64,000 nt of DNA from assembly GCA_051294375.1 (NCBI GenBank), contig CM119270.1:6875279-6939278 (forward strand), in the 5' to 3' direction. Every line of letters begins with the position of its first letter. Position 1 is the first letter of the stretch. The notes beneath the pieces were generated by a model. The model ran no database searches. It was not told the DNA's origin and worked only from the letters and a program-made list of their open reading frames with translations. The translations under genes were made by a program, and so were the position numbers. Positions 5,575 through 43,472 of the stretch are shown in pieces. Source of the DNA: Paraspadella gotoi (Eukaryota > Animalia > Chaetognatha).

Positions 5575-5606
<32 letters not shown>

Positions 5607-7416: not shown

Positions 7417-7452
<36 letters not shown>

Positions 7453-7535
7453 TCCCTATCCCTTCCTTTATTTCCTCTACATTTTTTTCTCTATCTCACT
7501 CTCCCACCGATACTCTCTTCTCTCTCCTCTCTTCT

Positions 7536-7567
<32 letters not shown>

Positions 7568-10124: not shown

Positions 10125-10160
<36 letters not shown>

Positions 10161-10237
10161 TAATATGAAGACTTTTCTTTAAAAGACAACGAGTCAACAA
10201 GTCATCAAAATGTCAAATAGTTTATTTAAGAATATTA

Positions 10238-10609: not shown

Positions 10610-10651
<42 letters not shown>

Positions 10652-13600: not shown

Positions 13601-15553
13601 TTTCGTCCTACTTTTGGTGCCCATTTTCTTTTTTTTAATTAATCTTAATTCATTTTTATTTAGTACCTACTTTTCTATTCGTTCTTTCCTTTCTTTCGTC
13701 TTTACCCTATTTATAATAAGTATGTACGCCAGCCTACTTTTAAAAATCCTCTCTCAACCTAAATCTCATTCCACTATTTCTCCGTTCGGCTCCACTATCG
13801 TTTGCTCTCATTGCTCCTCTAAGCTCATACTTCACCTTCCACTTTAAACGCGTAGTGGAGGCGGCGTCTGTCCTCCGCGTCAAAATGCGACGGTCGACGA
13901 GCGCCTGTGCGATGGAAACCCGTTCTCGCCTTAGTAATAGTATTATTATTTATATCTTATTATATTATTTTATTTATTTTATGATCAGTATACTTCTTGT
14001 TATATATATATTTTGGTATACCATTTATATTATATATGCATTCATACTTAATTCATGACTGTAACACGCCACTCCAATCAAATTCACTAATCATCCGCCA
14101 CCTCCAACAAATTTCTATCACCAGCCACTCCATCAAATCTCTAGATCACCAGCACCTCCAACAAATCTTCTAATCACCAGCCACTCCAATTAAATCTCTA
14201 ATCAGCAGCGACCTCCATCAATCACTGATCTCCAGCCCGCTACCGAATCAAATCTCTAATCACCGAGCCACCTCCAATCAAATCTCTAATCACCGCCATC
14301 GATTAACTAATCTCCAGCACCCTCCAATCAAATCACTAATCACCCGCCGCCACTAGCCCTCCGTGATCTCGTGTTGGCATCCGTGGTTCGAGTCGACAAG
14401 TTGACGCGGCGTCATTCCCGATCGAAGCGGCGTTCGCGTTTGGGCCTCTGAAGGAAAAAGATGGGAGGAAAGAAGAGAGGGAGGGAAGGCGAATGGAGCA
14501 AGGAGAAGTAGAGGAGAGGGAGGAAAGGCGGAGGAAGAATACAGGAAATGGGTAATTAAAGGGTGGAAAGGAAAGAAAGCAGTGAGAGGTGCAGAGGGAG
14601 AAAGGGGAGGATAGGAGAAAAGGAGGAGGAAAGGAGCGGAAAGGAGGAAAGAGGAAGGAGGAAAGAAGCGATTAAAAATAGAAGAGATAGAAAAAAAGTT
14701 TAAAAAACGTAGAGAAGATTAAAATGTTTGAGTAGAGAAAAAAAATAAAATGGTTTTCAGAATGGAGGAGGCAATAGCAATAGTCGTTGGCGTCACTCCC
14801 GCAAAGGGATCATTTAGCTAACCTGGTTATATTAAAATTAAATTTCTCAAGACGATGATTCATACAACTTAATAAAATTAGACAATTAATCGGAAGCGAG
14901 AAAAAAAAAAGGAATTAGTTTTTAAAGGCAATTGTGAGAGAGAAAATAATCCCTCGCTTGTGCGTCTTTTTTCAATTGATGCAAATTTATCTAATTCGAT
15001 TCATTTAATTTCTCATTTTTTTTTTCTTCCGCGCTACATTACATTCGGCTAAACAGTAAGTAATTATTATTCTCGATTGGTCGAGGAGGTTGAAATGGAA
15101 AGCTGGAAGAGGTTTTAATTTTTTATTTCTATTAGGGGTAAAATGACAAAATATATGACGTAATAAGACACAATAATAAGCAATAAATAATCTGCGTGAT
15201 TGTACAATAACAAATATCGACAGACAAAAAGTACAAATGACGACGGAAACATGACAACACATACGGCGCAACTTAACAATGTACTTTTCCCTCAGTATGT
15301 ATAACTTTCTTTCATATCCAAAAAACATCTCCCAAATCAAACTCACTCCAACTCATTCCGCACCCACCTCACCCTCACGCCTCACCTGCGGAATAAGCTC
15401 GTCCACCATGCCCACCACCCCGCTCGCGCCGCGTAGTGCAGCGGGCTGCTGATCTTGTCTCCGACGTTCGACGTCGGCGACGTGGTGGAGGAGATGCTGA
15501 AGATGGAGGTGTGGCCGCCTGGGACGGCCTCGTGGAGGGTTTATGCCCGTACC
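10238..15553 (-). pseudogene. Indel-riddled duplicate of ankyrin gene exons 3-11 (likely uncorrected long read, not a true pseudogene)
   Basis: Collinear with 30360-35603. Scattered 1-nt indels occur in exons and introns alike. Confidence 0.7.
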
Positions 15554-15805
15554 TGGAGAGGAGGGAGTTGGAGAAGAAAGAATGAATGAATGAATGATGA
15601 ATGAATGAATGAATTAATAAGAATGAATGAATTGAATGATGAATGAATTGAATGAATAATGATTGATGAATAATAAAAAATGTACCATTTCGAATAATTA
15701 AAGAATAAAATTACAAACTTCGAGAAATTTATTGGAGTTGCAACTGATCAGGTCACCGACGAACACGAACACGCAAAATCCTCTCTCTCTCTCTTCTCTC
15801 TCTCA

Positions 15806-15839
<34 letters not shown>

Positions 15840-16315
15840 CTTCTCTCCTCTCTCTCATCTCTCTCTCTCTCTTCTCTCTCCCTCTCTCTCTCTCTTCAAC
15901 GTTTTTATATTTATTCGTACGCCAAGTTGTCAATTCTTATTTTGTTAGACTGATAGACTTAGCTCTTCTGTTCCCGCAAAGTTTCTTCTGTTTTTAACTC
16001 TGTTTTGTCTGCCGTTTTCTTACACTCGAAAAAATTTCACCTCTGCTCTGAACTTCCCGTTCGATCGTTGGCTCATGGTACATTCATGTTGCGAAACGAT
16101 TTTGTGATTCGGTTAACTTAAAATATTTTGCTCAGAAGGTATCAGTAAAAGGCCTGCTCTACTCCACTTTTCTGTTCTTCATCGAGAAAAACAAAGCAAA
16201 ACAAACAAATCCAAACAACAAAGAACAACATTCGAAAAACTAACAGAAAATTCAAGCCCCGCCTGCTTATTACGCGTCAAGATCAGCAGCAGTATTCCGC
16301 TGCAAGCAATCACGC

Positions 16316-18192
16316 ATGGCGCAATCCTCGTTCGACCGGAAATAGTCCGGAATCAACTCCTCTTTCCCTCCGTTCAAACCGCGCGGATGTTTCTCCGTTT
16401 CCGTCGAATCTGCGTCTCGCGGGTCGTTCTCGGCGCCAGAGAAAAAACTCGGTCGCATTCCGTCGAAAAACTCGCCTCCACCAAAACTCGCATTGTCGGT
16501 TTCGAAGGAAACTTGAGTGTGGGAATCTAAGTTAAAGATCACACGAAGGTTAAATTGCGGGTATTGGGAGGAAAGGGAGCAAAGGGTGAAAGGCGGGCAT
16601 AGGGCCTAAAGGAGAGAAAAGGGAAAGCGCGCAGAGGGAGGAAAAGGCGGGCAGTAGGGCCAAAAGACGAAAAGAAAGGGAGAGGCGGCAAAGGGGCAAA
16701 AGCGGCATTAGGGCCAAAAGGGTAAAAGAAAGGGGGAGGAAAGCGGGCACAAGGCTGCAAAAGCGGGCATAGGGACAAAAGACGGGAAGAGAGGGAAAGG
16801 CGGGCAAAGGTGCAAAAAAGCGGTTAGGCCAAAAGGAACGGAAGATAAGGGAAAGTCGGAGAGAGAAGAAAAGTGGGCATAGGCTCGGATCCCGGACCAT
16901 TAGCGAGGGGCGTTAATTTCTAAATGATGCAAAACACAATTTCTTTCGAATCAACCAGTCACAAATTACAAAACCTGTTTCTCCTCCCTAAATCAAGGTT
17001 GTCTCCTTTCTACCCTGGCCTTCCCAATTTACCATTCCAACGTTTCTCGCCACCGACTACGCTCTCCGTCGAACTTCCAGCCGCTCCAATTCTTCGAACA
17101 ACGCTGAGAATTTTTTACGTGGGATTTCGACCCAGTCGCAATTCCTTCGAAATCCCCGCCGGAGAGCATCTCGGGCTTCGCGCTCGAAGAGGCTCGGGTG
17201 CGAGGGAGGATCCCAGATGTTGAAACGCGCTCGATTGCCCAAGGGGTCGGGCAGACGAATCGAAGTCTGACGTCGCGTCGTTCGCCCGAAGTTCACGCAT
17301 CGACGGATCGACGAATAGACAAACGATTTTCGAATATCCATGACAGCGAAAGAGGAAAGAAGAAAAGAAGAAGAAAAAGACGAAGGGCGTCAACGATAAC
17401 AAAGCGTTGGGCCAATTCAATCGACTCTTTTGCCGTTGATGGAAAAAGGATTCGGAATCTTATCTCGACACCCTCATCGCAAAAATTGCAGAAGAGACAA
17501 ACGCGACAAAGTTGGCGAGAATTTAAAACTGATCTATAATATTGGTAAACATTATATCTTTAAACTTTCATTCGTACCCTTGGTCCAGTTCCAACAAGTC
17601 ATTTCCCGCTGACCATCGGCGACGATTCGGCGAGTTCGCCTTTGACCGTAATGGAACTTTTAGCAAGCAAGTGCTGGCCGGATCAAAGCTTCATTGTCAA
17701 AGCTCAACAGAGGCCTTCGACCCTTTGACGGGACTTTCTCTTTATCCTCAACTCGTACTTTTTGTGGTCGATCACTCCTTCCATCGTTGTCGCTTAATTA
17801 CGAAGGCATTAAGTTACATCTCTCTCTCTCACTCATAGGACGCCGCAGGCAATACCATTATCTGACTATGTAAAAACTTTGCTGTACATAGACTAAAAGT
17901 ATTATCCATGGAAAATCATCATTTTGATGATGCTTATCAATCATATTGATTCTAAACTATTATTTATACAACATTTCGCCCCAATAAAAAACGTTGGATG
18001 GCATTACTTGCAAAGGGAAAAAATTTAAATAATTGTGTAATTGTAAATGGAAAGATTTCATGAAGAATGCCTGATTCTTAGATTAAATTGTAAAGAGAAA
18101 GTCAGCTTTTTATGACCTATTGTTATTATTTCCCTAAAGCCCATTGAATAAATTCCAATTCAAATTCAAAAATTCAAAATCACTCTCTTCTC

Positions 18193-18225
<33 letters not shown>

Positions 18226-21200
18226 CTCTCTCTAGTCTATCTTGTTGTCATTAGTTATCCGGAGAGTTATCCGATTCAGCATCCCTTTTCTCACCAGCAA
18301 TGTCGCGATTGAGAAATCTCCGAAATTAAAAATTACCGCCCGGCCGGAACAGAGAGGCGCTATCCCGCACGGCAAGGGACACGACGCCGCCGGAGCTTCA
18401 CTCGCACGATGTGGGACCGGGACGCATTCGCGGAACGAACGCGACGGGAAGTCAGAAGCACGACCGCCACTCGCACATCACTACGGGATTATGAAGCGGA
18501 CATGCTCGGTCCACCGATAGGATGGAAACGCGAACGACGACGCGACGGCGACGTTGGCTACGGGCGACGCGATGAGCCCGGCGTTCTTGGACGAAGGGCT
18601 CCGTCCACTTCCTTCGATCCTCATCGGTCGAGGCGATCCGCTGGTCCATCTCTTGCAACACAGCAAGGGCGCTGCTTTTCCGGTCGGGGATCGCGAACAG
18701 TTTGAGCAGTTCCTCCCGCGGCGCCGAAGAATTGTGGAGATCGAGAAGGCGACTTGGGCTCTCGTCGAGGGCGGCGTGGTGTGGGACAGGAACTGAACCG
18801 CGGAATTTAAAACGTTTGAAAAAAAAAATGGCTTATTTATATTTAAAAGTATAAACATTTTTTTCTTTTAGATTCTTTTCTATTTTGTTTTGTATTCGTC
18901 TCATATCTCCTAATTTTGTTTATTGTATGTATTTGTTATTTGTATTCGTATTTTTTACCTTTATTTATCTTCGATTCTTTCACGGACTCGCGAGTGGTCA
19001 GTTTCTCATCCCATCTTTCTCTGATTGGCTGAATTTTCCCGCGTCCTCCCCCGCCTCCTTAAAAAAAAGTTCGGCAATCACTCTGACGACGAATCGATGC
19101 CGCGCCGCCGGCGCCGACGTCCCCGCACCCGAGAAGCGACGCATCCTCCACGAGATGATGGACGTCAAATCATCTCCAAACATATCCCCGGATACGAATG
19201 CTGCTGGGTATTCGCGGATGGCGCCGGGGGCGCGCGAAGTTGGAAATAATCAGAAGAAGTTTGTGATAATGGAGATAAGGCAGTAAAAGCGACAAATGTC
19301 AATATCCAGTGGCGCATATAAAATAACGTATCCACGTTCTTCCTTATGCCTTCCTTGCCTTGCTGGTGGTCGTTACTCCGAAGTACCGTTTTCTGCATTG
19401 GTCATTAGTCAATGAAACCTACCTAGTAGGGGGTAAGGGCCATATTCTTCCGACATACCGGTACAGCTGCTACAACTTAAACAAAGGCACGGCGAGAGAA
19501 ATATGTTTGTGTCAGAACCGGTTTCAATTTTTGAAATAAAAAAAAACCGGTTTGATTTTCAATTTCTTCTTGGTGTAAGAAGGAAGTCATTCAGGCATTA
19601 CAATGCGTAATCTTTGATGTATTAGAGATACATCCGGAGAAATTACATTATAGTATTATATTATAATTAAAACGGAATATTAAAATGGCGAGTAGGAATG
19701 CATCAAATGTTTAAAGTGAATACAGTTTTCGGAATCGGCTGGGAGCTCAGCCTTCTGAATTTTGTACTACCATTTTGGCCCCTATTTTGAAGTTTGAATT
19801 GAATTACCCTTTTTCTTAAAAAATTCAAAAACAAAATCCATCTACAATGAATTAACACTATAACTTTGCCAAAAAACAGGAAAAATAAACTAAATATGGA
19901 AATTTGGTGGTTGTAAGATTCAAGCAGCTTTAACCTTTTGGTTATTTCATCGCCTGCCTTCTACATTGATTACACTCGTCGTCTTCACACGATTTCGCGC
20001 GACAAATCTCGATCTGTCATCGTCATTGAAATGGCCCGACGGTAGGGAGACCGCCTCGAAAGCTTGAACGATGGCTGAATTCAAGCAACGAAATGGCGCC
20101 ACCTTGTTCTCCGTGACATTTTTCGTCAAGAGGCAACGGCCGCTGAAGAGAAGCGTGCTGGCGCATTGAACAACATCGCCGGCCGACCATCCCAAGTGTT
20201 GAGAATGCAAATTAAGCGAAGCTCGGAGGATCTTGTATTTCGAAGAAATGGAATCCTTCGTCCAAATGTGAAATCATGGAGGACTAGACGATTTGAGAAG
20301 TTGTTGTCGGAAACTGACCCCCACGAAAGCCTTCAATTCATCAGTCGGCCCATTGTGGAGAGTCAAGATGCTTCGAGCGGTGGAACGGACAAGAGCAGAA
20401 CCACGCCATTGATCTGACTTTTATCACGCGATCGTCGATGGAATTTCCGCCGTGAATATCGGCGATCGACTCATGGACGAAATTGCAGCGAAGAGAATCT
20501 GTTCCGGATGCGAGGACGCCATTGCCGGAAAGTTGCCGCCGTCGTATGTTTCGTTTCTCGGGCGAAAGCTTAACGGGACATTTCTCGGCTCTGGAAAATA
20601 ATTATATACTTGACTTCGAAATTGTTTCAATTATAACTTTTTTTCCGAAAGAAAAGCCTTGTTCTTTCGTCGCTCGAGCAGCTTCGCCGAAACGAGTTGC
20701 GATCGAAGATCCGCCGTCCGACAGACAAGCTTTATTCCCTAAAATGTGAACAAGGACGATTTCGACAAAGCTCCTTGGTCAATTGCCGTCGACATAACAT
20801 GCAAACTGCAAGAGCGTTGCAAGCCCGTAGTGAGCCTGGCTTCAAGTATGAGACTCTTAGCACGCCTCAAAGTCGAAGGATCGAGCTACCCGACCTGTGA
20901 ACATTCAAAGTAGACCCGATCCGGCGCGCCAGATTGTCGAGCCAAACTACCCTCATCGGTGATCGGATGTTTAATAAACCGGCGCCATGATGAGGAGAAA
21001 CGTGGAATCCGACACCGAGAGACTGAGAGAAAATTGGACTCTCGCCAAATCTATGAGCGACGAAAGATTCCGGAAAAAAAAGCAAGAAACGCCGTTGGAA
21101 TTTTTCCTTAAAAAAGATTGGAGTTTATTTTCGCATCTTGCCTGGCTTTCTTGGTTGGAAAATATCCAACGCATCAACGAACGAAACCTTCCTTCGCGAT

Positions 21201-22015
21201 CTATCAACTTGGATTTCGTCATCAGCAACTTTGGCAAGTTTCTCGACCGCGAAGACGAACGCGCCTTCGACATCTTCGCGGCGTATTCCGCCCACAACGC
21301 AACCTTCAGCGAGGTGTGCTTTTTGCACATGAATTCTTTCCCTGCGCGGATCAACTGTTTTGGACGATTAATTTTTCGGAGGTCGTGATTTCGGTCGAAG
21401 AAGGGAGAGTTAACGCTCGATCTTGGAGGAGCGTTTTGAGAGACGTTGTTGAATGGGAGGGATCTAAAAAGACGTGAAAATGACTGGAATGAAAACTTTG
21501 CTTTTTACTTAAATGAAAAACAAAGTTTAATATAATCAAAACTGCTTAAGTTTTTTTAATTTATAGTATTAATAGTTTATAGATTTCACACCTTGGCTTC
21601 TCTTGTTTTTTATGGGAATGATTATTTAAACGAATAAAAATTTTCTCTTTTTTTTTTATATTTTAAACGGGTTTGCTCTATATTTTAGTTATTATCAACG
21701 ATTAAAATATAAAAATAAGGTTAGGGACCCAATAAAAAAACCTTCTTAATTGCAAACTATATTGTATGACCTTTTTTAGTCTTTCTGACAAAATGTCGTT
21801 CGCTATTAATACAATGACAACCAGCCCGTCCTCAAGCATTCCCGCATGGAAACTTGCTTTCATTTTTCAAACCCCTCCGCCACAACGGACAAACTCGAGA
21901 CAACACATTTCCCTTCGTCTGGTAGTGAAGAAGCGCGTGACCGGAGTGCCATGCTGCCTCAAGGGCCATGGAGACATATCCGGAGGTCGTCGCCACCGGC
22001 GGGCACAAGAAGTGA
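16316..22015 (+). pseudogene. Indel-riddled duplicate of the TEX47-like gene (likely artefact)
   Basis: Collinear with 36306-42077; fragmented ORFs share peptides such as EIEKATWALVEG and VPAPEKRRILHEMMDVKS. Confidence 0.7.
19896..21467 (+). pseudogene. Indel-riddled duplicate of the condensation-domain gene (likely artefact)
   Basis: Collinear with 39975-41531; shared peptide MMRRNVESDTER...SINLDFVISNFGKFLDREDERAFDI. Confidence 0.72.
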
Positions 22016-22130
22016 CCGCCTGGGAAGTTTATGATTTTAAAGGAGTGCTTTCATGACAAAAAAGAAGTACAATGTCAGTACTTCGTTCGAGATTTTCAAA
22101 TATTTCGGATAACATTTGATCTCTCGTCTG

Positions 22131-30827: not shown

Positions 30828-31346
30828 CTCTCTCTCGCGCCTCACCTCCCTCCCCTCCCATCCTCTCCATCCACTCTTCTTCCACTTCTCTCGCGCCAAA
30901 CTCGACGAGCCTCTCCACGGCGTCGACGGCCGCCGCCTCCGCCGCCCAACCCGTCGCCGTCATCCCATGGCGCGTCGCGGCGTCGACTGGCGCGCCCCCT
31001 CGCGCCACGGCGTTGGGATTTTTAGGGCGGGATCTATGACGATGGCGGCTGAATGGATGGATTTATTGATTTATTGATTTATTTCTTTATTTCTTTATTT
31101 ATTTTATTTATTTCTTTATTTCTTTATTCTTTATTTATTTATTTATTATTATTTATTTATTTATTTTTATATTTATTTATTTATTTATATATAATTTTAT
31201 TTATATTTATTTATTATTTATTTATTATATTTTAACTATTTATTTATTTATTTATTTATTTTTATTTTTTTTTTTTTATTTATTTATTTATCTTATGTAT
31301 CTATTTATTTACTTCATTTATTTATTATTTATTTATTTATTTATTT

Positions 31347-31398
<52 letters not shown>

Positions 31399-33119
31399 TT
31401 AATATAATATAATCCAATTTTGCTCATTGATTCATTGATTGATTTATCGATTGACTGAATAGTCAAAATTCTGAGAAACGTAAATCACCTTACAAAACCG
31501 CCGAGTTTTATCTCCACAACGAAAACTAACAAACTCACTTACCCACGAGGAAACTCCCAAAAAAACTCACCCAGATGCAGCGGCGTGAATCGTTTCTCCG
31601 TGAGTCTGAAATCGACGCTCGCCCCAAAGTCGAGAAGGGCGAAGATTATCGCTTCCATGTCGACGAGATTTGCAAGGTTGAGAGCCAACCCTAAAAAGCA
31701 CGGCGATGAGAAAATTGAAGCAAGGAAGAGACGGATTGGGAAATATACTCAAATTGAAAAAAACTATAAAGACCGACAGACAGACGGGCAGAAAGATGGA
31801 GAGACAGACAGAAAGATAGGAAGACGGAGATACTAGCAAGAAAGTCAGGCGCACTGACAAATAGACTGGGAGAGATACAGAAAGACAGACTAACATACAG
31901 GCAAACAGACCAAGAAACAGCCAGGCAAACAGGCAGACAGACAGACAGACCGGCACGAAAAGAGACAAATACATGGACCGACTAAAACGTATCTCTCACC
32001 CAAAGGCGTCCATCCGCTCTTCGTAATGGGATCCACATCGCATCCCGACTTAAGAAGAAAAGCAACGATGTCGAAGTTGCTGCTTTCGACGGCTTTGTAG
32101 AGGGCGGTCTCGTCCTAGTGGAGCGGAAATACGGACGGTGGGTCATAGGAGTAGGCCATTAATCTAAAGATATTACTTAGTGGGTCGGACAAACGAAATG
32201 GGATCTCGACTGAGGTGAGCGGGATTACGTCTTCGAGTAGGTGGAGCGGATCGAAAAGTTGATCTTCCTGCAACTTCTACTTTACGTGGTTCGGCACAAT
32301 GCGTTGCGCACTACAATCGAATCTTTTCATGTCTTTTCTATGTATTTATATAATTAAAATCCTTTTTTCCATGCCTCACCTCCCCCCGCCCTTCACTAAC
32401 CTCGCAATTCCTCCCGTCGAGGTCGGCGCCAACTCGGACGAGCCACTCGACCATCTCCCGGTTCTTCTTCACGTAGATGGCGGAGATGAGCGGAGTGTTG
32501 AGATTGTGGGGATTGTGGAGGTTTGGGTCAGCTCCTTTGGAGGAAGAGGGGGGGGGGAATGGACGGAGGTCGTGGAGAGTTAATGGTTTTTGTTTGTTTG
32601 TTTGTTTGTTTTTTTTAATTCTCTTGTCAACTGTTTCCGCTCATAAAAAATAAAACTCAGAAAAAAAATAAAGAAAAGAAAAGAAAAGAAAAGAAAAGAA
32701 AAGAAAAGAAAAGAAAAGAAAAGAAAAGAAAAGGAAAAAAAGAAAAGAAAAGAAAAGAAATTAAGAAATAAAAAAAAACCGAGCGAACGAACTAAACAAA
32801 CAAACAAAAAAATCAACTAACGAACGGATCGAACCAACCAACGAACAAATTGTCTAATCTAACCAACCACAGAACAAACAAATTAACGAACGAACGAACA
32901 AAAGAACGAACCAACGAACGAAACCCTCGCATATTCCTCCATGATTTTTCACTCTTCAATGAATAACTAATGAATCGCGACGTAAACTTTAAAATATTCA
33001 CGACGTTTTTTTCTTTCTTTCTTTTTTTTTTCCCTCAGCGAAATAATGCGAAAGAGATTTTGATGGATGGATTAAAATGTTGAAGCTAAAAAATAAAAAA
33101 AAAATATTAAATAGTACGA

Positions 33120-33152
<33 letters not shown>

Positions 33153-35834
33153 ACGAGAATATTCATGAAAGAAATCAAATATGGACTTTAGTTTTTACGG
33201 TTGAAAAGATATCGAAGAAAATGTGGTTATTTTAATCCGTTCTGAAGTTAATTGTTTGACGACAATTTTCGTTTCATTTTTGTACGACGGAAAATGGGAA
33301 TTCGAATATCTGAACTTCATTTATTTAATTACATTTATTTATTTTCATTTATTTATATTTATTTATTCATATTTATTTATATTTATTTATATTTATTTAT
33401 ATTTATTTATATTTATATTTATTTATATTTATTTATATTTATTTATATTTGTTTATATTTATATTTATTTATTCATATTTATTTATATTTATTCATATTT
33501 ATTCATATTTATTTGCTATCGTTTCTTAATTACTTTTATTCACAAAGTCGCTCAGTCACCTGCTTCGGCCAACATCCGGGCGATCTCGAAATGTCCCGCC
33601 CGCAGCGCGAACGTCAGCGGCGTCTCTCCGTCTTTGTCGACGGCGTCGACGTTGGCGCCCGCGTCGAGAAGAATTCGCACGTCCGCCACCTGGTGGGGAG
33701 AGAAGGAAGTTTGATTTGTGCTTTTTGTCCTTTGTTTTTGTGCCTTTTTGTTTCGTCCTTACTTTTGTTGCCCATTTTCTTTTTTTAATTAATCTTAATT
33801 CATTTTTATTTAGTACCTACTTTTCTATTCGTTTCTTTCCTTTCTTCGTCTTTACCCTATTTATACATAAGTATGACGCCACCTACTTTTAAAAATCCTC
33901 TTCTCAACCTAAATCTCATTCCACTGATTTCTCCTTTCGCTCCACTATCGTTTTGCTCTCATTGCTCCTCTAAGCTCTAACTCACCTTCCACTTATAAAC
34001 GGCGTAGTGGAGCGGCGTCTGTCCTCCCGCGTCAAAAGCGACGGCGTCGACGGAGGCGCCTGTGGATGAAACCCGGTTCTCGCCTTAGTAATAGTATATA
34101 TTATTATCATTATTATATTATTATTATTATTTTATGATCAGTATACTTTCTTCGTTGATATATAATATTTTGGTATGTACCAATTTTATATATATATGCA
34201 TTCATAACCTAATTCATGACTTAAATCACCCGCCACCTCCAATCAAATCACTAATCATCCGCCACCTCCAATCAAATTTCTAATCACCAGCCACCTCCAA
34301 TCAAATCTCTAATCACCGCCATCGATTAACTAATCTCCAGCCACCTCCAATCAAATCACTAATCACCCGCCGCCACTAGCGCCCTCGTGATCTCGTGTTG
34401 GAATCCCGTGGTTCGAGTCGACAAGTGAAGCGGCGTCATTCCCGATCGAGAGGCGGCGTTCGCGTTGGCGCCTCTGAAGGAAGAAGAGGGAGGAAGGAGA
34501 AGAGAGGGAGGGAAGGCGGAAGTGGAGGAAGGAGGAAGTAGAGGAAGGAGGAGGAAGGGCGGAGGGAAGAATACAGGAAAATGGGAATACAGGGTGGAAA
34601 GGGAAAAGAAAGCAGTGAGAAGGGTGCAGAGGAGAAAGGGGACGGATAGGAGAAAAGGGAGGAGGAAAGTAGGGAAAGGAGGAAAGAGGGAAGGGAGGGA
34701 AAGAAGGATTAAAAATAGAAGAGATAGAAAAAAAAGTTTAAAAAAAACGTAAGAGAAGATTAAAAATGGTTTGAGTAGAGAAAAAGAAAATAAAATGGTT
34801 TTTCAGAATGAGGAGGCAATAGCAATTAGTCGTTGCGTCACTCCCGCAAAGGAATCATTTAGCTTAACCTGGTAGTATTTAAATATTAAATTTCTCAAGA
34901 CGATTATTCATACGACTTAATAAAAATTAGACAATTAAATCGGAAGGAGAAAAAAAAAGGATTAGTTTTTAAAGGCAATTGTGAGAGAGAAAAATAATCC
35001 CTCGCGTGCGTCTTTTGTTCAATGATGCAAATTTAATCTAATTCGATTCCATTTAATTTCTCATTTTTTTTTTCCTTCCGCGCTACATTTACATTCGGCT
35101 AAACAGGTAAGTAATATTATTTCTCGGTCGAGGAGGTTGAAATGGAAAGCTGGAAGAGGTTTAATTTTTATTATTCTATTAGGGGTAAAATGACAAAATT
35201 ATGACGTAATAAGACACAATAATAACGCAATAAATAATCTGGTGATTGTACAATAACAATATATCGACAGACAAAAAGTACAAATGACGACGGAAACATG
35301 ACAACAAATACGCGCAAACTTAACAATGTTACTTTTTCCTCTCAGTAATGTATAACTTTCTTCATATCAAAAAACATCTACCCAATCAAACTCACTCCAA
35401 CTCATCCCATCCCACCTCACCCTCACCCTCACCTGCGAATAAGCTCGTCCACCATGCCCACCACCCCCGCTCGCGCCGCGTAGTGCAGCGGCGTCTGCTG
35501 AGTCTTGTCTCCGACGTCGACGTCGGCGTCGTGGTGGAGGAGAGTGCTGAAGATGGAGGTGTGGCCGCCTTGGACGGCCTCGTGGAGGGGGTATGTCCCG
35601 TACCTGGAGAGGGGAGGGGAGTTGGAGAGAGAAAAGAATGAATGAATGAATGAATGAATGAATGAATGAATGAATGAATGAATGAATGAATGAATGAATG
35701 AATGAATGAATGAATGAATGAATGAATAAAAAAATTAGTTTTACCATTTCGGAATAATAAAGAATAAATATTACAAACTCGAGAAATTTATTTGAGTGTG
35801 GCAACTGATCAAGTCACCGACGAAACGAACACGC

Positions 35835-35890
<56 letters not shown>

Positions 35891-38187
35891 CGTTTTTATA
35901 TTTATTCGTACGGCCAAGTGGTCAATTCTTATTTTGTTAATGACTGTAGACTTAGCTTCTTCTGTTCCCGTTTTCTTCTGTTTTAACTCTGTTTTGTCTC
36001 CGTTTCTTACACTCGAATAAAATTCACTCTTGCTCTGAACTTCGTCTCGATCGTTGCCTCATGAGTACATTTCATGTTGCGAAACGATTTGTCGAATTCG
36101 GTTAATTTAAAAATATTTTGCTCAGAAGGGTAATCGTAAAAAGAGCCGCTCTACTCACTTTTCTTTCTTCATCGAGAAAAACAAAAGCAAAACAAACAAA
36201 ATCCAAACAACAACGACAACAATTCGAAAAACTAAAGTAAAATTCAAGCCCCGCTGCTTATTACGCCGTCAAGATCAGCAGCAGTATCCGCTGCAGCAAT
36301 CACGCATGGCGCAATCCCTCGTTCGACCGGAAATAGTCCGGCAATCAACTCCCTCTTTCCCCTCCGTCAAACCGCCGGATGTTTCCTCCGTTTCCGGCGA
36401 ATCCCTGCGTCTCGCGGGTCTTCTCGGCGCCAGAAAAACTCGGTCGCATTCCGTCGAAAAACTCGCCTCCACCAAAACTCCGCCATTGTCGGTTTCGAAG
36501 GAAAACTTGAGTGTGAGGGAATCTAAGTTAAAGATTCACATCGAAAGGTTAAATTGCGGGTATATGGGGGGAAAGGGGAGCAAAGGGTGGAAAGGCGGGC
36601 ATAGGGCCTAAAGGAGGGAGGAAAAGGGAAAGGCGGGCAGAGGGAGGAAAGGCGGGCATAGGGCCAAAAGACGAAAAGAAAGGGGAGAGGCGGGCAAAGG
36701 GTGCAAAAGCGGGCATAGGGCCAAAAGACGGAAAGAAAGGGAAAGGCGGGCAAGGGTGCAAAGCGGGCATAGGGACAAAAGACGGGAAGAGAGGGGAAAG
36801 GCGGGCAAAGGGTGCAAAAGCGGGCTTAGGGCCAAAAGACGGGAAGATAAGGGAAAGTCGGGAGTAGAGAAGAAAAGTGGGCATAGGCTCGGATACCCTG
36901 GACATTAGCGAGGGGCGTCTAATTTCTAAATGATACAAACACAATTTCTTTCGATCAACCAGTCACAAATTACAAAACCTGTGTTCTCTCTTTCCCTTTA
37001 AATCAAGGTTGTCTCCTTCTACCCTTGGCCTTCCCAATTACCATTCCAACGTTCTCGCCACCGACTACGCTCCCGTCGAATTCCAGCCGCTCCAATTCTT
37101 CGAACAACGCGGATTTTTACGGGGATTTCGACCCAGTCGCAATTCCTTCGAAATCCCGCCGGAGGCATCTCGGGCTTCGCGCTCGAAGAGGCTCGGGGCG
37201 AGCGGAGGATCCCAGATGTTGAACGCGGCTCGATTGCCCAAGGGGTCGGGGCAGACGAATCGAAGTCTGACGTCGGCGTCGTCGCGAGTCACGCATCGAC
37301 GATCGACGAAATATGACAACGATTTTTTCGAATATCATGACAGCGAGGAAGAGGAAGAAGAAGAAGAAGAAGAAGAAGAAAAAGACGAAGGCGTCAACGA
37401 TAACAAAAGCGTGGCCAATCTCAATCGACTCTTTTTGCCGTTGATGGAAAAGGATTCGGAATCTTATCTCGACACCCTCATCGCAAAATTGCAGAGAGAC
37501 AACGCGACAAAGTTGGGAGAATTTAAAACTATCGTATAATATTGTAAACATTATATCTTTAAACTTTCATTCGTACCCTTGGTCCGTCCAGACAAGTCAT
37601 TTCCCGCCTTGTCATCCTGGCGACGATTCGCGAGATTCAGCCTTTGGACGTAATGGACTTTAGCAAGCAAGTGCTGGCCGGGATCAAGCTTCATTGGCAA
37701 GCTCAACAGAGGCCATTCGACCCTTTGACGGGGACTTGTCTCGTTTATCCTCAACTCGTACTTTTTGTGGTCGAATCCACTCCTTCCATCGTTGTCGCTT
37801 ATTACGAAGCGATTAAGGTTACATCTCTCTCTCTCACACACTAGACGCCGCAGGGCAAATACCATTATCTGACTATGTTAAAAACTTTGCTGTACATAGA
37901 CTAAAAAGTATTATCCATGGAAATCATCTTTTTGATGATGCTATCAATCATATTGATTCTAAAACTATTTATACAAACATTTCGCCAATAGAAACACTGT
38001 TGGGATGGCATTACTTGCAAAGGGAAAAAATTTTAAATAAATTGTAAATTGTAAATTGGAAAGATTTCATGAAGAATGCCTGAATTCTTAGACTTAAATG
38101 TAAAGAAGTAGCTTTTTATGACCTATTGTTTTATTTTGAGCCTAAAGCCCCATTGAATAAATTCAACTTCAAATTCAAAATTCAAAA

Positions 38188-38230
<43 letters not shown>

Positions 38231-39676
38231 TGTTGTCATTATTATCGGAGATTTATCCGATTCAGCATCCCTTTTTCTCAACCAGGCAATGTCGACGATG
38301 AGAATCTCCGAAATTAAAAATTACCGCCCGGCCGGAAGAGAGGGCGCTCTGCCCGGCACGGCAAGGGACACGACCGCCGCCGGAGCTTCACTCGGCACGA
38401 TGGGGACCGGGACGATTCGCGGAACGAACGCGACGGGAAAAGTCAGAAGCACGACCGCCACTCGCAGCATCACTACGGGGATTATGAAGCGGGACATGCT
38501 CGGTCCACCGATAAGGATGGAACGCGACACGACGACGACGACGGCGACGTTGGCTACCGGAGCGACGCATGAGCCCGGCGTGACTTGGACGAAGGGCTCC
38601 GTCACTTCCTTCGATCCTCATCCGGTCGAGGCGATCCGCCTGGTCCATCTCTGCAACAACAGCAAGGGGCGCTGCTTTCCCGGTTGGGGATCGCGACAGT
38701 TGAGCGTGCCTCCCGCGGCGCCGAAGAATGTGGAGATCGAGAAGGCGACTTGGGCTCTCGTCGAGGGCGTCGTGGGGTGGGTACAGGAATGACCACGGAT
38801 TTAAAACGTTTGAAAAAAAAAATGGCCTTATTTATATTTAAAGTATAAACCATTTTTTTTCTTTTAGATTCTTTTCCTATTTTGTTTTTGTATTCGTCTC
38901 ATTATCTCCTAATTTGGTTATTGTATGGTATTTTGTATTTTGTATCTTTTTTTTTACCTTTATTTATCTTCGATTTTCACGACTCGCGAGTGGTCAGTTT
39001 CTCATCCATCCTTTCTCTTGATTGGCTTATTTTCCCGCTCCTTCCCCGCCTCCTTAAAAAAAGGTTCGGCAATCACTTGACGACGGAATCGATGCGCGCC
39101 GCCGGCGCCGACGTCCCCGCACCCGAGAAGCGACGCATCCTCCACGAGATGATGGACGTCAAATCGATCTCCAAACATATCCCCGGATACGAGATGCTGC
39201 TGGGTATCGCGATGGCGCCGGGGGCGCCGCGAAGGTTGGAAATAATCAGAAGAATTTTGTGATAATGTAGATAAGGCAGATAAAAGGACAAATGTCAAAT
39301 CCATTGGCGATATAAAATAACCGTTATCCACCGTCTTCCTTATGCCTTGCCTTGCCTTGCTGTGGTCGTTACTCCGAATGTACCGTTTTCTGCCATTGGT
39401 CATTAGTCAATGAAACCTACCTAGTATGGGGTAAGGGCCAAGTATTCTCTCGACATACCGGTACAGCTGCTACAACTTAAACAAAAGGCACGCGAGAAAT
39501 ATGTTTGTGTCAGAACCGGTTTCAATTTGAAAATAAAAAAAACCGGTTGATGTTGATTTCAGATTTCTTTGGTTAAGAGAAAGGTCATCCCAGCATACAT
39601 GCGTAATGCTTTGATTGTATTAGAGCTAATACATCGAGAAATACATTATAGTTAAAAATAAAATAAAATAAAATAA

Positions 39677-39749
<73 letters not shown>

Positions 39750-42700
39750 TACATTATAATTAAAACCGATATAAAATGGCGTAAAATGCATCAAATGTTT
39801 AAAGTGAATACATTTTCGGAATCGGCTGGAGCTCAGCCTTCTGAATTTGTACTCCATTTTGGCCTATTTTGAAGTTGAATTGAATTACCCTTTTTCTTAA
39901 CAAAATTCAAAACCAAAATCCATCTACAATGAAATAAACTATAACTTTGCCAAAAACAGAAAAATAAACTAAATATGGAAATTTGGTGGTTGTTAAGTCA
40001 AGCAGCTTTAACCTTTTTGGTTATTATCATCGCCTGCTTCTACATTGATTACACTCGTCGTCTTCAACATTTCGCCGACAAATCTCGATGCTGTCATCGT
40101 CATTTGAAAGGGCGACGAGGGCGACCCCTCGAAGCCTTGGAAACGTTGGCTGAATTCAAGCAACGAAATGGCGCCACCTTGTTCTCCGTGACATTTTTCG
40201 TCAAGAGCAAACGGCCGCTGAAAGAGGAAGCGTTGCTGGCGGCATTGAAGAACATCGCCGCCGACAATCCAATGTTGAGAATGAAAATTAAGCGAAGCTC
40301 GGAGGATTTCTTGTATTTCGAAGAAATGGAATCCTTTCGTCCAAATGTGGAAATCATGGAGACTGACGATTGGAGAAGAGTTGTCGAAACTGACCTCACG
40401 AAACCTTTCAATTCATCAGTCGGCCCATTGTGGAGAGTCAAGATGCTTCGAGGCGGATGGAACGGACAAGAGCAGACACGCCCATTGATCATGACTTTTC
40501 ATCACGCGATCGTCGATGGAATTTCCGCCGTGAATATCGGCGATCGACTCATGGACGAATTGAGCGGAGAGAATCTGTCCGGATGGAGGACGCCATTTGC
40601 CGGAAAGTTGCCGCCGTCGTATGTCTCGTTTCTCGGCGAAAGATTAACGGACATTTCTCGGCTCTGGAAAATAATTATATACTTGACTTCGAAATTGTTT
40701 CAAGTTATAAACTTTTTTCCGAAAGAAAAGCCTTGTTCTTTCGTCGCTCGAGCAGCTTCGCCGAAACAAGTTGCATCGATATCCGCCGTCCGACAGACAA
40801 GCTTTATTCCCCTAAAATTGAACAAGGACGATTTCGACAAGCTGCTTGGTCAATGCCGTCGACATAACTGCAAACTGCAAGGAGCGTTGCAAGCCGTAGT
40901 GAGCCTGGCTCAAGTAGAGACTCTGCAACGTCTCAAAGTCGAAGGATCGAAGCTACCCGACCTGTTGAACATTCAAAGTCGGTACCCGGAATCCGCGCGC
41001 GAGATTGTCGAGCCAAACTTACCCTCATCGGTGATCGGATGTTACATAACCGGCCGCATGATGAGGAGAAACGTGGAATCCGACACCGAGAGACAGAGAG
41101 AAAATTTTTGGACTCTCGCCAAATCTATGAGCGACGAGATTCGGAGAAAAAAGCAAGAAACGCCCGTGGAATTTTTCTTAAAAAGATTGGAGTTTATTTT
41201 TCGCATCTTTCCTGGTTTCTTGGTTGAAAATATCCAACGCATCAACGAACGAACCTTCCTTCGCGAATCTATCAACTTGGATTTCGTCATCAGCAACTTT
41301 GGCAAGTTTCTCGACCGCGAAGACGAACGCGCCTTCGACATTTCCGCGGCGTATTCCGCCCACAACGCAACCTTCAGCGAGGTGTGCTTCTTGCACATGA
41401 TTCTTTCCCTGCGCGGTCAACTGTTTTGGTCGATTAATTTTTCGGAGGTCGTGATTTCGGCGGAAGAAGGGAGAGTTAACGCTCGATGCTTGGAGGAGGT
41501 TTTGAGAGACGTTGTGAATGGGAGGATCTGAAAGACGTGAAAATGACTGGAATGAAAACTTTGCTTTTTTACTTAAATGAAAACAAAGTTTAATATGAAT
41601 CAAAACTGCTTAAGTTTTTTTAATTTACTAGTATAATAGTTTATAGAATTTCACACCTTTGGCTTCTCTTGTTTTTTTGGGAATATTTTTAAACGAATAA
41701 AAAAAATTTTCTCTTTTTTTTTTTAATTTTAAAACTGTTTGCTCATATTTTAGTTATTATCAACGATAAAATATAAAAATAAGGTTAGGGTGACCCAAAT
41801 AAAAAAAACCTTCTTAATTGCAACTATATTGTATGACCTTTTTTTTAGTCTTATTCTGACAAAATGTCGTTCCATATTAAACAATGACAACCATGCCCCG
41901 TCCTCAAGGCATTCCCGCATGGAGAACTTGCTTCTCAACCTCCGCCACAACGACAAACTCGACGACAACACATTTCCCTTCGTCTGGGAGAAGAAGCGCG
42001 TGACCGGAGTGCCATGCTGCCTCAAGGGCATGGAGACATTCCCGGAGGTCGTCGCCACCGGCGGGCACAAGAAGTGACCGCTGGGGAATGTTTATGATTA
42101 AAGGAGGTGCTTTCATGACAAAAAAAAAGTACAATGTCAGTACGTTCGTTCGAGATTTCAATTTTCGGATTAAACATTTGTACTAATATTACATATACTT
42201 ATGTACTTAAAGCAACTGCGTTTTTTTTTTTTTGTTAACGAATATAGTGCATTAGACTTACGTAATGTTTTGTTCAAACCAGACGTAATTCCCCTATTTG
42301 GCTATGAACCGTTTATTACTTAAATAGTTATTAACCCCGGAACCAACTAAAACTCCCAAGTATGACAGAGTACAATAGATACAGTAAGACTGTAACGAGC
42401 AGCTAAAAATATTTTTAAAAAAAATATTCAATCATACTTAAGAATAAAACAACAACAGCATTGCCTAAAAGTTTCGACATTACCACTCGTCGTGCTGGTT
42501 GACCTTGGCTCCGGCCTTTAAGAGAATGTCGACGATCCTTTCCAGTCCGTCTTTAGAGGCGAAGCAGAGAGGCGTCCGTCCCGTGATCTCGGATCCTGGG
42601 ATGTAGGGGCCTGAGGAGTCAAATCAAATGATGGATACAAATGGTTTGAGATGATTTTATTTAAATCGGATGCAAATGGATTAACTGGATATGGATAACC

Positions 42701-43472
42701 CGGATGATTGACGTGAAACAAAATAGTATAAATTTTAAATCTATGGGATTTGAACTGTGAATAAAATTTAATTGAAATGATTGAAGAGACAGTAATAATT
42801 GTTATGTGTTAGTGACAGAACCGTTCAATATAAGCAGTCCCTGAGCTTCGGATCAGACTGTAACACCGTGTTATAGGCGGGTTAAGTCCTTATAGCAGTC
42901 CTTCTTAACTGCAAGGCGACCACGGGGCTAGAACCCCAGACCTTTGGGTTGGGAGGCGAATGACTTGCCTCCGGCACCAATGGCCGCTGATTATGGTCCA
43001 CCATATCATATATATTTTCAGACTGACTCACCCGCAATTTCCTCTAAAACTTACCCTTCTTCGACTTATCCTTCGTCAAATTGACTCGACCGAATTTACT
43101 GTAAAACTTGTCCACGTAATTGACGTCGGCTCCAGCGTCCACGAGCCTTTGGACGCCATCGACGTCGTTGTTGGAGATGAAATGCAGCAAATCTTGCTGC
43201 AGGTATTGCTGCGATACGTCTTTGGGAACCTCGAGCTGCAGATTATTCGGCGATAAATGATGGTTTTGCAGCAAGTTTTGTGGCGATTCAAGGTTCGGGA
43301 GCTCTGGATCCGGGTGATCTTGCTGCAAGACAGGAAACGTCTCATCTTCTTCCAGAAACAGAATGTTTTGTAGATTTAACGGAGGAGGGGGAGGAGGAGC
43401 AGCGGGAGGGGGAGCTGGAGCAGGAGGAGCAGCAGGAGTAGGAACTGAGGTAATAGAATCAGGTTCTTCCAT
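30360..43472 (-). CDS. Multi-exon ankyrin-repeat protein (~617 aa as modelled; probably ankyrin repeat and SOCS box, ASB-like)
   Basis: Phase-consistent GT-AG exons read by hand: 43472-43055, 42610-42484, 35603-35433, 34473-34367, 34059-33986, 33689-33560, 32534-32401, 32114-32000, 31690-31571, 31048-30846, 30612-30360. The spliced translation gives successive ankyrin repeats: GVQRLVDAGADVN, GRTPLCFASKDGLERIVDILLKAGAKVN, TYPLHEAVQGGH, QTPLHYAARAG, GMTPLHLS, GQTPLHYAV, LLDAGANVDAVDKDGETPLTFALRAGH, ETALYKAVESSNFDIVAFLLKSGCDVD, FTPLHLAA. Exons 10 and 11 each need a 1-nt correction. The 3' end is uncertain. Confidence 0.9.
31062..31400. repeat. (TTTA)n low-complexity intronic repeat
   Basis: Visible directly. 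Confidence 0.9.
32672..32760. repeat. (GAAAA)n microsatellite
   Basis: Visible directly. Confidence 0.9.
33320..33514. repeat. (ATTTAT/ATTT)n intronic repeat
   Basis: Visible directly. Confidence 0.9.
34225..34366. repeat. ~29-30 bp minisatellite (CCGCCACCTCCAATCAAATCACTAATCA), ~5 units; ~9-10 units in the copy at 14065-14345
   Basis: Tandem units directly visible. Confidence 0.85.
35636..35727. repeat. (GAAT)n microsatellite
   Basis: Visible directly. Confidence 0.95.
36306..42077 (+). CDS. TEX47: BLUF-fold TEX47/DYBLUP/MOT7-like protein (600 aa, 6 exons), nested in intron 2 of the ankyrin gene
   Basis: Exons 36306-36547, 37008-37511, 37592-37817, 38286-38776, 39064-39234 and 41909-42077 join in phase (1803 nt, ATG to TGA, no internal stop). 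Motifs KQVISRLVILATI, LTGTCLVYPQLVLFVVES, IRLVHLCNNSKGRCFPGWG and C-terminal FVWE match, in order, the BLUF-like TEX47 family pattern as I recall it (RLxx..TGxLLxYP..xxES..RxFxxW). Confidence 0.72.
36570..36890. repeat. ~58-60 bp purine/G-rich minisatellite, ~5 units, in intron 1 of the TEX47-like gene
   Basis: Recurring GGCGGGCAAAGGGTGCAAAAGCGGGCATAGGGCCAAAAGACG; noisy copy at 16570-16890. Confidence 0.85.
39654..39750. repeat. (AAAAT)n-(AAT)n microsatellite
   Basis: Visible directly; absent from the duplicate copy. Confidence 0.95.
39975..41531 (+). CDS. Intronless condensation-domain / alcohol-acetyltransferase-like CoA-dependent acyltransferase (518 aa) with N-terminal membrane anchor
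   Basis: Single clean ORF with the catalytic HHxxxDG motif (MTFHHAIVDGIS), preceded by PFNSSVGPLWRV and an N-terminal RPLEALE motif, with a late ISNFGKF motif. Residues ~4-24 are hydrophobic. AATAAA occurs downstream at ~41696. Confidence 0.88.
   Translation: MEIWWLLSQAALTFLVIIIACFYIDYTRRLQHFADKSRCCHRHLKGRRGRPLEALETLAEFKQRNGATLFSVTFFVKSKRPLKEEALLAALKNIAADNPMLRMKIKRSSEDFLYFEEMESFRPNVEIMETDDWRRVVETDLTKPFNSSVGPLWRVKMLRGGWNGQEQTRPLIMTFHHAIVDGISAVNIGDRLMDELSGENLSGWRTPFAGKLPPSYVSFLGERLTDISRLWKIIIYLTSKLFQVINFFPKEKPCSFVARAASPKQVASISAVRQTSFIPLKLNKDDFDKLLGQCRRHNCKLQGALQAVVSLAQVETLQRLKVEGSKLPDLLNIQSRYPESAREIVEPNLPSSVIGCYITGRMMRRNVESDTERQRENFWTLAKSMSDEIRRKKQETPVEFFLKRLEFIFRIFPGFLVENIQRINERTFLRESINLDFVISNFGKFLDREDERAFDISAAYSAHNATFSEVCFLHMILSLRGQLFWSINFSEVVISAEEGRVNARCLEEVLRDVVNGRI
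42790..42987 (-). mobile_element. tRNA-derived SINE-like element (pseudo-tRNA head 42987-42915) in ankyrin intron 1
   Basis: 73-nt head with a paired acceptor stem (GCGGCCA/TGGTCGC), A-box-like TGGTGCCGGAGG and T-arm GGGGTTCTAGCCCC (B-box-like). The anticodon stem is unpaired. A ~120-nt body and short A-rich end follow. Confidence 0.55.

What the first reader, a model, noticed from the sequence alone, without database searches (positions are those of the whole stretch)
35604..42483. Three-level nested locus: acyltransferase gene inside a BLUF-fold gene inside an ankyrin gene
Seen: ankyrin exon 2 ends ...QHDE-tg|GTAATG (42484) and exon 3 resumes CAG|g-YGTYPLHEAV (35603), completing a Trp codon and continuing the repeat series, so 35604-42483 is one 6880-nt intron. 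A 6-exon antisense gene (36306-42077) fills ~84% of it. That gene's last intron (39235-41908, phase 2, ag|GTTGGA...CAAG|g) contains a complete intronless 518-aa ORF on the same strand. Established: nested genes are usually single-level and antisense; double nesting with a co-oriented inner gene is rare. Inference: the middle transcript must read through the inner gene's promoter and poly(A) signal, and all three may interfere with one another, which implies separated expression (e.g. ciliated or sperm cells versus secretory cells).
Basis: partly seen in the sequence, partly recalled or inferred. Interest (0 to 1): 0.9.

Follow-up and report, generated by a model that had tools for sequence, protein, structure and literature searches.

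The report
Gene inside gene inside gene
In an unidentified invertebrate, an intact acyltransferase-like reading frame lies inside a spliced-out intron of a likely cilium-protein gene, which in turn lies backwards inside what is very likely one intron of an ankyrin gene; the nesting is real and tightly packed, but such Russian-doll genes are already known from flies and comb jellies.

Summary
The architecture is real. All reported coordinates match. Spliced contigs from two studies show the 39234>41909 junction directly, so the middle mRNA skips the 518-aa ORF. The middle gene (600 aa, 6 exons) is TEX47/DYBLUP-like; "BLUF fold" rests on family literature only. The inner ORF is an intact HHxxxDG acyltransferase. 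Its independent transcription is likely but unproven: a TATA box at 39311 lies 35-47 nt before two RNA-contig starts, and AATAAA stands at 41696. A polymorphic 324-nt TTAA-flanked insertion sits in its presumed 5' UTR. The 20-kb upstream copy of the locus is most likely a long-read assembly artefact. The rarity claim is overstated: 484 doubly nested genes are reported in Hormiphora, a handful in Drosophila, and intronless genes are the usual same-strand tenants. Cell-type separation is untested. Verdict: a well-supported new member of a known kind. Two look-ups of earlier scan notes found no similar case.

The parts
43055..43472 (-). Ankyrin gene exon 1 (ATG at 43472; Pro-rich N-terminus and first partial repeat)
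   Evidence: spliced to exon 2 in X9 and X5 contigs (table 8)
42484..42610 (-). Ankyrin gene exon 2; its donor opens the 6880-nt intron
   Evidence: Pfam Ank 27.5 bits, cut-off 21.1; X9 and X5 contigs leave or branch from the genome at 42481, i.e. the donor plus 3 letters shared with exon 3
35604..42483 (-). Ankyrin intron 2 (outer host intron, 6880 nt; the other measured introns are 286-1025 nt)
35433..35603 (-). Ankyrin gene exon 3
   Evidence: Pfam Ank 50.2 bits; one of only two AG|GTA[CGT] sites between 42483 and 35599
30960..34473 (-). Ankyrin exons 4-10 (34473-34367, 34059-33986, 33689-33560, 32534-32401, 32114-32000, 31690-31571, from 31048); exon 10 frame uncertain
   Evidence: Pfam Ank above cut-off in exons 6, 7, 8; exon 10
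36306..36547 (+). TEX47-like gene, coding part of exon 1; exon likely extends up to 35884 or beyond
   Evidence: loose end before 37005 in X9 is 36516-36545; length arithmetic
37008..37511 (+). TEX47-like exon 2 (low-complexity, acidic)
37592..37817 (+). TEX47-like exon 3, first part of the TEX47 domain
   Evidence: Pfam TEX47 22.2 bits, profile 2-65; only PDB hit is TEX47, E 1.1; Atlas first hit TEX47 cluster 0.90
38286..38776 (+). TEX47-like exon 4: about 100-aa Thr/Gly-rich insert, then second part of the domain
   Evidence: Pfam TEX47 11.2 bits, profile 80-125; joints
39064..39234 (+). TEX47-like exon 5
   Evidence: joint 38776>39064 in X9 and X5
39235..41908 (+). TEX47-like intron 5 (inner host intron, 2674 nt; the others are 80-468 nt)
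   Evidence: spliced out in X9 and X5 contigs
39311..39317 (+). TATAAAA box, candidate promoter of the inner gene
   Evidence: X9 and X5 contigs begin at 39346 and 39358 where DNA contigs run on; 2.0% background; weak hint
39577..39900 (.). 324-nt insertion flanked by TTAA, with an (AAT)n core; absent from one X9 contig; ends 74 nt before the inner ATG
   Evidence: 552-nt X9 contig covers 39346-39576 and 39897-40221; ends; very high summed DNA depth at both ends
39975..41531 (+). Intronless 518-aa acyltransferase ORF, hydrophobic N-terminal helix (residues 6-24), HHAIVDG at 176-182
   Evidence: Pfam Condensation, AATase, WS_DGAT_cat above cut-off
41696..41701 (+). AATAAA followed by a T-rich stretch, candidate poly(A) signal of the inner gene
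   Evidence: sequence; X9 contig ends at 41669; use not shown
41909..42128 (+). TEX47-like exon 6 (stop at 42077, ATTAAA at 42097, contig end 42128 at a genomic A-run)
2667..22118 (+). Error-rich second copy of 24075-42180, most likely an assembly artefact; not part of the biology

Best explanation
This is a three-level nested locus: the TEX47-like mRNA splices out an intron that holds a complete acyltransferase-like ORF, that gene lies antisense within what is very likely one ankyrin intron, and the three are likely separate transcription units. Shown: the gene models, the splicing of the middle gene across the inner ORF, ankyrin exon 1-2 splicing and the use of the donor at 42484. Inferred: polymerase on the ankyrin gene crosses both tenants on their non-coding strand, so their splice and poly(A) signals are not read; polymerase on the middle gene crosses the inner promoter and AATAAA, and splicing of intron 5 wins over cleavage. 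The inner gene likely starts about 30 nt behind the TATA box at 39311, ends near 41700 and is tolerated on the same strand because it has no introns and no strong splice site. It likely arrived last, as a duplicate of a multi-copy acyltransferase family; a mobile element then inserted in its 5' UTR and still segregates. Conflict is likely limited by partly different cells or times (axonemal protein versus membrane-anchored acyl-transfer enzyme), which was not tested.
For: Junction 39234>41909 in two studies, none in DNA runs; exact 1263-nt length match. X9 2194-nt contig joins ankyrin exons 1-2 and goes on for 641 letters that lie off the stretch from 42481; X5 contigs branch at 42481-42510 and 41906-41935. 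Only two AG|GTA[CGT] acceptors fit (39420, 35603); the 2194-nt contig is not among the pieces listed on 36890-39650, and no later ankyrin exon begins with GTA. DNA contigs 38237-39579 and 40459-42806 confirm local order. Inner ORF intact in a 1%-diverged allele: no nonsense change or gap in 1446 nt, stop TGA to TAA. TATA box 35 nt before the X9 contig start. No strong donor and no pyrimidine-rich acceptor on the plus strand between 39235 and 41836 by my two patterns. Extra DNA depth and contig breaks at the HHxxxDG-coding stretch suggest paralogues. Removing the tenants leaves ordinary intron sizes: 702+406 and 416+377 nt. Pattern matches Drosophila statistics.
Against: The outer junction was not seen on exon 3. 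No run is on record as RNA; contigs give no strand, start, end or level. In X5, contigs run without a break from 39875 to 42510, as unspliced ankyrin RNA or DNA carry-over would. The X5 contig start is 47 nt from the TATA box, outside my 25-45 nt window. pN/pS of the inner allele is 0.45 but not significant (8 non-synonymous, 5 synonymous, p 0.18). The presumed 5' UTR holds 6 upstream ATGs (11 with the insertion). No target-site duplication or poly(A) remnant marks the inner gene as an insertion, and no related genome was available to order the events.
Confidence: 0.72

Rival explanations
1. Two-level nest plus a silent passenger: the inner ORF is a young copy without a promoter of its own, and its RNA cover comes from unspliced host RNA (ankyrin antisense or middle pre-mRNA) or DNA in the libraries.
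For: X5 contigs are continuous from 39875 to ankyrin exon 2; X9 also has a contig in intron 4 (38813-39035); pN/pS not significant.
Against: In X9 no listed contig links 41669 to 41906 or 42128 to 42481; contigs of two studies start 35 and 47 nt behind a TATA box; ORF, motif and stop are intact in a diverged allele; X5 has no cover on 36890-38327, unlike DNA.
Confidence: 0.14
2. Promoter sharing: the inner ORF is an alternative last exon of the middle gene, made from the same promoter (like CPNE1/RBM12, seen here in a search listing only) or as a fusion.
For: Same strand, last intron, weak exon-6 acceptor (TCAAG, few pyrimidines).
Against: The only frame-compatible AG after 39900 is at 39998, without a pyrimidine tract and inside the N-terminal helix; the 552-nt X9 contig enters the ORF unspliced from 39346; only exon 6 is listed as the loose end of exon 5; unspliced read-through of exon 5 stops after 9 codons.
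Confidence: 0.06
3. The outer level is false: ankyrin exons 1-2 and 3-10 are two transcripts, or the region is misassembled.
Against: Frame, Trp codon and repeat series continue; RNA contigs leave at the donor with the three letters of exon 3; DNA contigs and the error-rich copy give the same order; exon 3 has no start of its own in the model.
Confidence: 0.04
4. Functional coupling: the nesting is kept because the genes regulate each other (for example the inner promoter truncating ankyrin transcripts), not merely tolerated.
For: X5 cover from ankyrin exon 2 into the intron stops near the inner gene's 5' end; intron retention and cryptic polyadenylation next to nested genes are described (PMC3192792, abstract).
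Against: No strand information; no minus-strand AATAAA between 40808 and 38964; the three proteins have no evident common pathway.
Confidence: 0.1

Closest known systems
Doubly nested intronic genes of the ctenophore Hormiphora californensis (PMC8527503; passages read)
   Same: A gene inside an intron of a gene that is itself inside an intron; many nested genes parallel to the host; mobile elements often beside nested genes (1109 of 2357).
   Different: Different animal and genes; there defined by Iso-Seq, here by short-read contigs. Their count by orientation at each level was not seen (supplement on figshare, not read).
Russian-doll nestings of Drosophila (PMC5174743; passages; Assis et al. 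2008 known only through that text)
   Same: Antisense first level (71.3% of pairs), intronless same-strand tenant (71.5% of same-strand cases), proposed origin by insertion of young duplicates, interference as the constraint.
   Different: Only a handful in flies; external genes there are large, whereas here the tenants fill about 84-91% of a 6.9-kb intron and the middle gene has six exons.
TEX47 / DYBLUP / MOT7 / LAX28, f/I1 inner-arm dynein tether protein (PMC7909887 and 10.1101/782888; passages)
   Same: Exons 3 and 4 match the TEX47 profile in order; TEX47 is the only family hit in Pfam, PDB and Atlas.
   Different: 600 aa against about 250; a 250-aa low-complexity N-terminus and a 100-aa insert inside the domain; no Pfam BLUF match; exons 5-6 match nothing; flavin binding and ciliary location untested.
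Stand-alone condensation-fold (HHxxxDG) CoA-dependent acyltransferases of invertebrates, AATase/PapA-like
   Same: Three Pfam families above cut-off; motif shared by 3 of 3 aligned proteins; full-length match to a nemertean protein (24% identity); Atlas first hit an uncharacterised eukaryotic cluster, 0.98.
   Different: Very distant from all relatives found (2 hits among 7998 candidates); substrate unknown.

Membership tests
Doubly nested (Russian-doll) genes | Inner gene lies wholly inside one spliced intron of the middle gene | tested here: met
   ORF 39975-41531 inside 39235-41908; junction seen in X9 and X5
Doubly nested (Russian-doll) genes | Outer donor at 42484 is used | tested here: met
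   X9 contig leaves and X5 contigs branch at 42481
Doubly nested (Russian-doll) genes | Outer intron closes at 35604, beyond the middle gene | tested here: inconclusive
Doubly nested (Russian-doll) genes | Whole middle transcript, with its start, inside the outer intron | tested here: inconclusive
   CDS and 3' end inside; contig arithmetic reaches 35884, the edge of a (CT)n run, 280 nt from the intron end; start unknown
Doubly nested (Russian-doll) genes | Inner gene has its own transcript | tested here: inconclusive
   Contig cover, TATA box and AATAAA are hints; no strand or end data
TEX47/DYBLUP | Pfam PF24787 at or above cut-off 25 bits | tested here: inconclusive
   Single exons give 22.2 and 11.2 bits on profile 2-65 and 80-125; the spliced protein could not be scanned as one; Atlas 0.90; PDB E 1.1
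TEX47/DYBLUP | BLUF domain recognisable by profile | tested here: not met
   No PF04940 hit at E up to 10 for four exon pieces; LAX28 and other homologues are also reported without a clear BLUF signature, so fold is not excluded
TEX47/DYBLUP | Binds flavin, sits on f/I1 dynein tether | not testable with these tools
   needs biochemistry or localisation
Condensation-fold CoA-dependent acyltransferases | Pfam Condensation/AATase/WS_DGAT above cut-off | tested here: met
   36.4/30.6, 31.5/22, 27.1/23.6 bits
Condensation-fold CoA-dependent acyltransferases | HHxxxDG catalytic motif (motif recalled from knowledge) | tested here: met
   HHAIVDG at 176-182, identical in 3 of 3 aligned proteins
Condensation-fold CoA-dependent acyltransferases | Two-lobed CAT-like fold | tested here: inconclusive
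   Models poor (mean pLDDT 34 and 43); the listed Foldseek rows are NRPS condensation-type domains and PapA5 but with TM about 0.24
Ankyrin-repeat proteins | Ank repeats on both sides of the big intron | tested here: met
   PF00023 above cut-off in exons 2, 3, 6, 7, 8; exon 9 piece no hit; exons 4, 5 not scanned
piggyBac-type MITE (324-nt insertion) | TTAA target duplication and empty site (criterion recalled) | tested here: met
   TTAA on both sides; one X9 contig has a single TTAA
piggyBac-type MITE (324-nt insertion) | Terminal inverted repeats | tested here: inconclusive
   Ends only loosely alike over about 10 nt

The most novel reading that the evidence does not exclude
The locus is a natural switch: the segregating TTAA element in the inner gene's 5' UTR sets whether the acyltransferase is expressed, and firing of the inner promoter reshapes both hosts (inner RNA running on into the middle gene's last exon and poly(A) site, ankyrin transcripts cut short head-on at the inner promoter). 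It would be a three-way interference system testable by allele-specific reads in wild animals. Hints: X9's inner-gene contigs lack the element and differ at 16 of 1771 nt while its middle-gene mRNA differs at 0 of 1557; X5 carries the element and shows unbroken cover from 39875 to ankyrin exon 2.
Probability: 0.12. Interest if true: 0.65.

Novelty: new member of a known kind. Interest (0 to 1): 0.36.

Why it matters
It is a compact, junction-supported example of three protein-coding genes sharing 7 kb, in an animal lineage far from any protein in the databases (best ABCC hits 32-39% identical across bilaterians). It warns that gene finders will miss such tenants: neither inner protein was found in the protein collections. 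With a polymorphic insertion in the innermost gene, it offers a ready test of how a same-strand host ignores an intronic promoter and poly(A) signal. It does not change what is known to be possible, since double nesting is in print.

Tried and rejected
No whole genome is held, so paralogue counts, genome-wide nesting frequency and synteny could not be computed. No RNA holder is on record among 11 listed runs; X9 and X5 are treated as holding RNA because of GT-AG joints absent from DNA runs. Depth figures were not used to rank genes. TEX47 homologues for a profile of my own: none at E 0.001 among 1.84 billion representatives, none at E 10 among 61 candidates; so whether exons 5-6 complete the domain is open. 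Structure prediction of the inner protein failed. Upstream copy as a real duplication: rejected; over the inner ORF it has 79 indels (68 of 1 nt, 78 frameshifting) and 42 substitutions spread 13/14/15 over codon positions, and it shares 10 exact runs of 31 nt or more with 40459-42180 while DNA contigs of X1 and X4 are unbroken there; contigs drop rare variants, so this is not proof. The 39576>39901 skip as an intron: rejected, ends are GA..AA/TTAA, not GT-AG. A fourth nesting level: 116 flanking ORFs (114 of the 145 listed, plus two of my choice) gave only the ABCC gene and one sub-threshold hit; no support, weak test. No Rfam match in 35400-44500. No target-site duplication around the inner gene. 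Organism not identified. Literature: searches listed no paper on this trio; (shared poly(A) in last-intron nesting) returned none; subscription papers are not covered. Earlier scan notes gave nothing relevant.
Full report
Sequence check. The minus-strand ankyrin gene has ten exons with GT-AG introns; exons 1-9 join in one frame, and Pfam Ank exceeds its cut-off in exons 2, 3, 6, 7 and 8, on both sides of the 6880-nt intron. The plus-strand gene has six exons and one open frame of 600 aa. Its last intron, 2674 nt, holds a 518-aa ORF; 300 shuffles of the intron gave at most 188 stop-free codons. Both host introns are outliers: the other measured introns are 286-1025 nt (ankyrin) and 80-468 nt (middle gene), and without the tenants ordinary sizes remain.

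Evidence from sequencing runs. Nine of 11 listed runs hold half or more of the sampled words; none is on record as RNA. On 36890-39650, three joints were listed, all GT..AG: X9 has 3 of 3, X5 1 of 3, X1 and X6 none. X9 and X5, from two studies, therefore hold spliced RNA. In both, the letters behind exon 5 are those of exon 6. One X9 contig of 1263 nt carries exons 2 (part) to 5 and 41906-42128; its predicted length is exactly 1263. The junction to exon 1 is also seen, fixing the donor at 36547.

The outer junction is supported less directly, because exon 3 was not in either laid stretch. A 2194-nt X9 contig joins ankyrin exons 1 and 2 and has 641 further letters that leave the genome at 42481; X5 has the same splice and a branch at 42481-42510. 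The three letters beyond the donor equal the first three of exon 3. Only two minus-strand sites fit them, 39420 and 35603; the contig is not among the pieces listed over 39420, and no later exon starts with these letters. DNA contigs 38237-39579 and 40459-42806 confirm the local order.

The inner gene. It matches Pfam Condensation, AATase and WS_DGAT_cat above cut-off, has HHAIVDG at 176-182 and a hydrophobic N-terminal helix, aligns over its length with a nemertean protein at 24%, and falls nearest to an uncharacterised eukaryotic cluster in the Atlas. Folding failed; Foldseek rows are of the expected fold class but from a poor model. It is likely a membrane-anchored acyltransferase of unknown substrate. 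Whether it has its own transcript is the open point. For: X9 contigs cover 39346-41669 with no listed link to exon 6; X9 and X5 contigs begin 35 and 47 nt behind TATAAAA at 39311 where DNA contigs go on, against a 2.0% background (357 of 17756 positions); AATAAA with a T-rich tail at 41696; a 1%-diverged allele keeps the frame and swaps one stop codon for another. Against: contigs give no strand or ends; X5 cover is continuous to ankyrin exon 2; pN/pS 0.45 is not significant (p 0.18); six to eleven upstream ATGs. A fusion is unlikely.

The middle gene. Exons 3 and 4 match Pfam TEX47 in order (22.2 and 11.2 bits, cut-off 25); TEX47 is the only PDB hit (E 1.1) and the first Atlas hit (0.90). TEX47/DYBLUP/MOT7 links f/I1 dynein to its tether and has a BLUF or BLUF-like domain (PMC7909887, 10.1101/782888; passages; supplementary alignment not seen). 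Here Pfam BLUF is not matched, the protein is more than twice the usual size, and exons 5-6 match no family. 'TEX47-like' is well founded; 'BLUF-fold' is borrowed.

Assembly caveat. Window 2667-22118 repeats 24075-42180. Its differences are mostly 1-nt indels that break every frame compared, with substitutions even over codon positions, and DNA contigs are unbroken where the two copies share exact 31-mers. It is most likely a raw long read filled into a gap. It does not touch the finding, and it repeats the same gene order.

How it likely works. The ankyrin polymerase meets both tenants in antisense, so their processing signals are not read (inference from established knowledge); the few minus-strand AATAAA sites in the intron must be ignored. 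The middle gene is shown to splice across the inner ORF; cleavage at 41696 must lose to splicing (inferred). The inner gene carries no introns and, by my two patterns, no strong splice site, the property that Drosophila data link to tolerated same-strand nesting. Extra DNA depth at the motif-coding stretch hints at paralogues, so insertion of a duplicate is the likely origin; order of events is not tested. Separation by cell type is plausible for an axonemal protein and an enzyme, but mammalian pairs are often co-expressed (PMC11694760, passages).

Comparison and verdict. Double nesting is described: 484 of 2357 nested genes in Hormiphora (PMC8527503, passages) and a handful in Drosophila (PMC5174743, passages). 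My searches listed no paper on this trio. PMC3192792 was seen as abstract and outline, PMC2568002 as a listing only. The locus is a new, well-supported member of a known kind; tight packing and the segregating insertion make it a usable test case. Interest 0.36; architecture about 0.93 likely, independent inner transcript about 0.75.

Noticed in passing
window 2667-22118 versus 24075-42180: About 20-kb tandem copy at 87-92% identity with 1-nt indels in every exon compared, bounded by 25-N gaps; looks like raw long-read gap filling (the 25-N signature is recalled). It would create false pseudogenes.
   Followed up: yes
window 39577-39900: Polymorphic 324-nt TTAA-flanked repeat in the presumed 5' UTR of the inner gene; adds five upstream ATGs and a second TATAAAA at 39770.
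   Followed up: partly
window 40224-41669: X9 contig differs at 15 of 1446 nt, while X9's TEX47-like mRNA contigs differ at 0 of 1557; diverged allele, allele-specific expression or a close paralogue.
   Followed up: partly
window 39875-42510: X5 contigs cover this intronic stretch without a gap but nothing on 36890-38327; retained ankyrin intron, inner read-through or DNA, strand unknown.
   Followed up: partly
window 43371-44477: If unspliced, the X9 ankyrin contig reaches 1 kb above the ATG, to the (AG)n run 780 nt behind the stop of the same-strand SH2 gene: long 5' UTR or read-through. There is also a possible acceptor at 43508, and the X5 contig has 21 letters beyond it.
   Followed up: no
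window 30727-31062 (-): An ankyrin-like reading in the last exon is out of frame with the acceptor at 31048; assembly error or a truncated end. No Pfam hit at E 0.001.
   Followed up: partly
window 45258-48987 (-): Gene with a long low-complexity exon and a C-terminal SH2 domain (Pfam SH2, E 3e-08).
   Followed up: no
window 59817-64000 (+): ABCC/MRP1-like transporter with a 2.7-kb uninterrupted first frame and a Ser-rich insert in TMD0; a frame change near 62500; only 32-39% identical to the best hits.
   Followed up: partly
window 42781-42991: Very high-copy repeat in ankyrin intron 1 (summed DNA depth above a million).
   Followed up: no
window 36568-36887: 57-nt tandem array, 5.2 copies, in intron 1 of the middle gene.
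   Followed up: no
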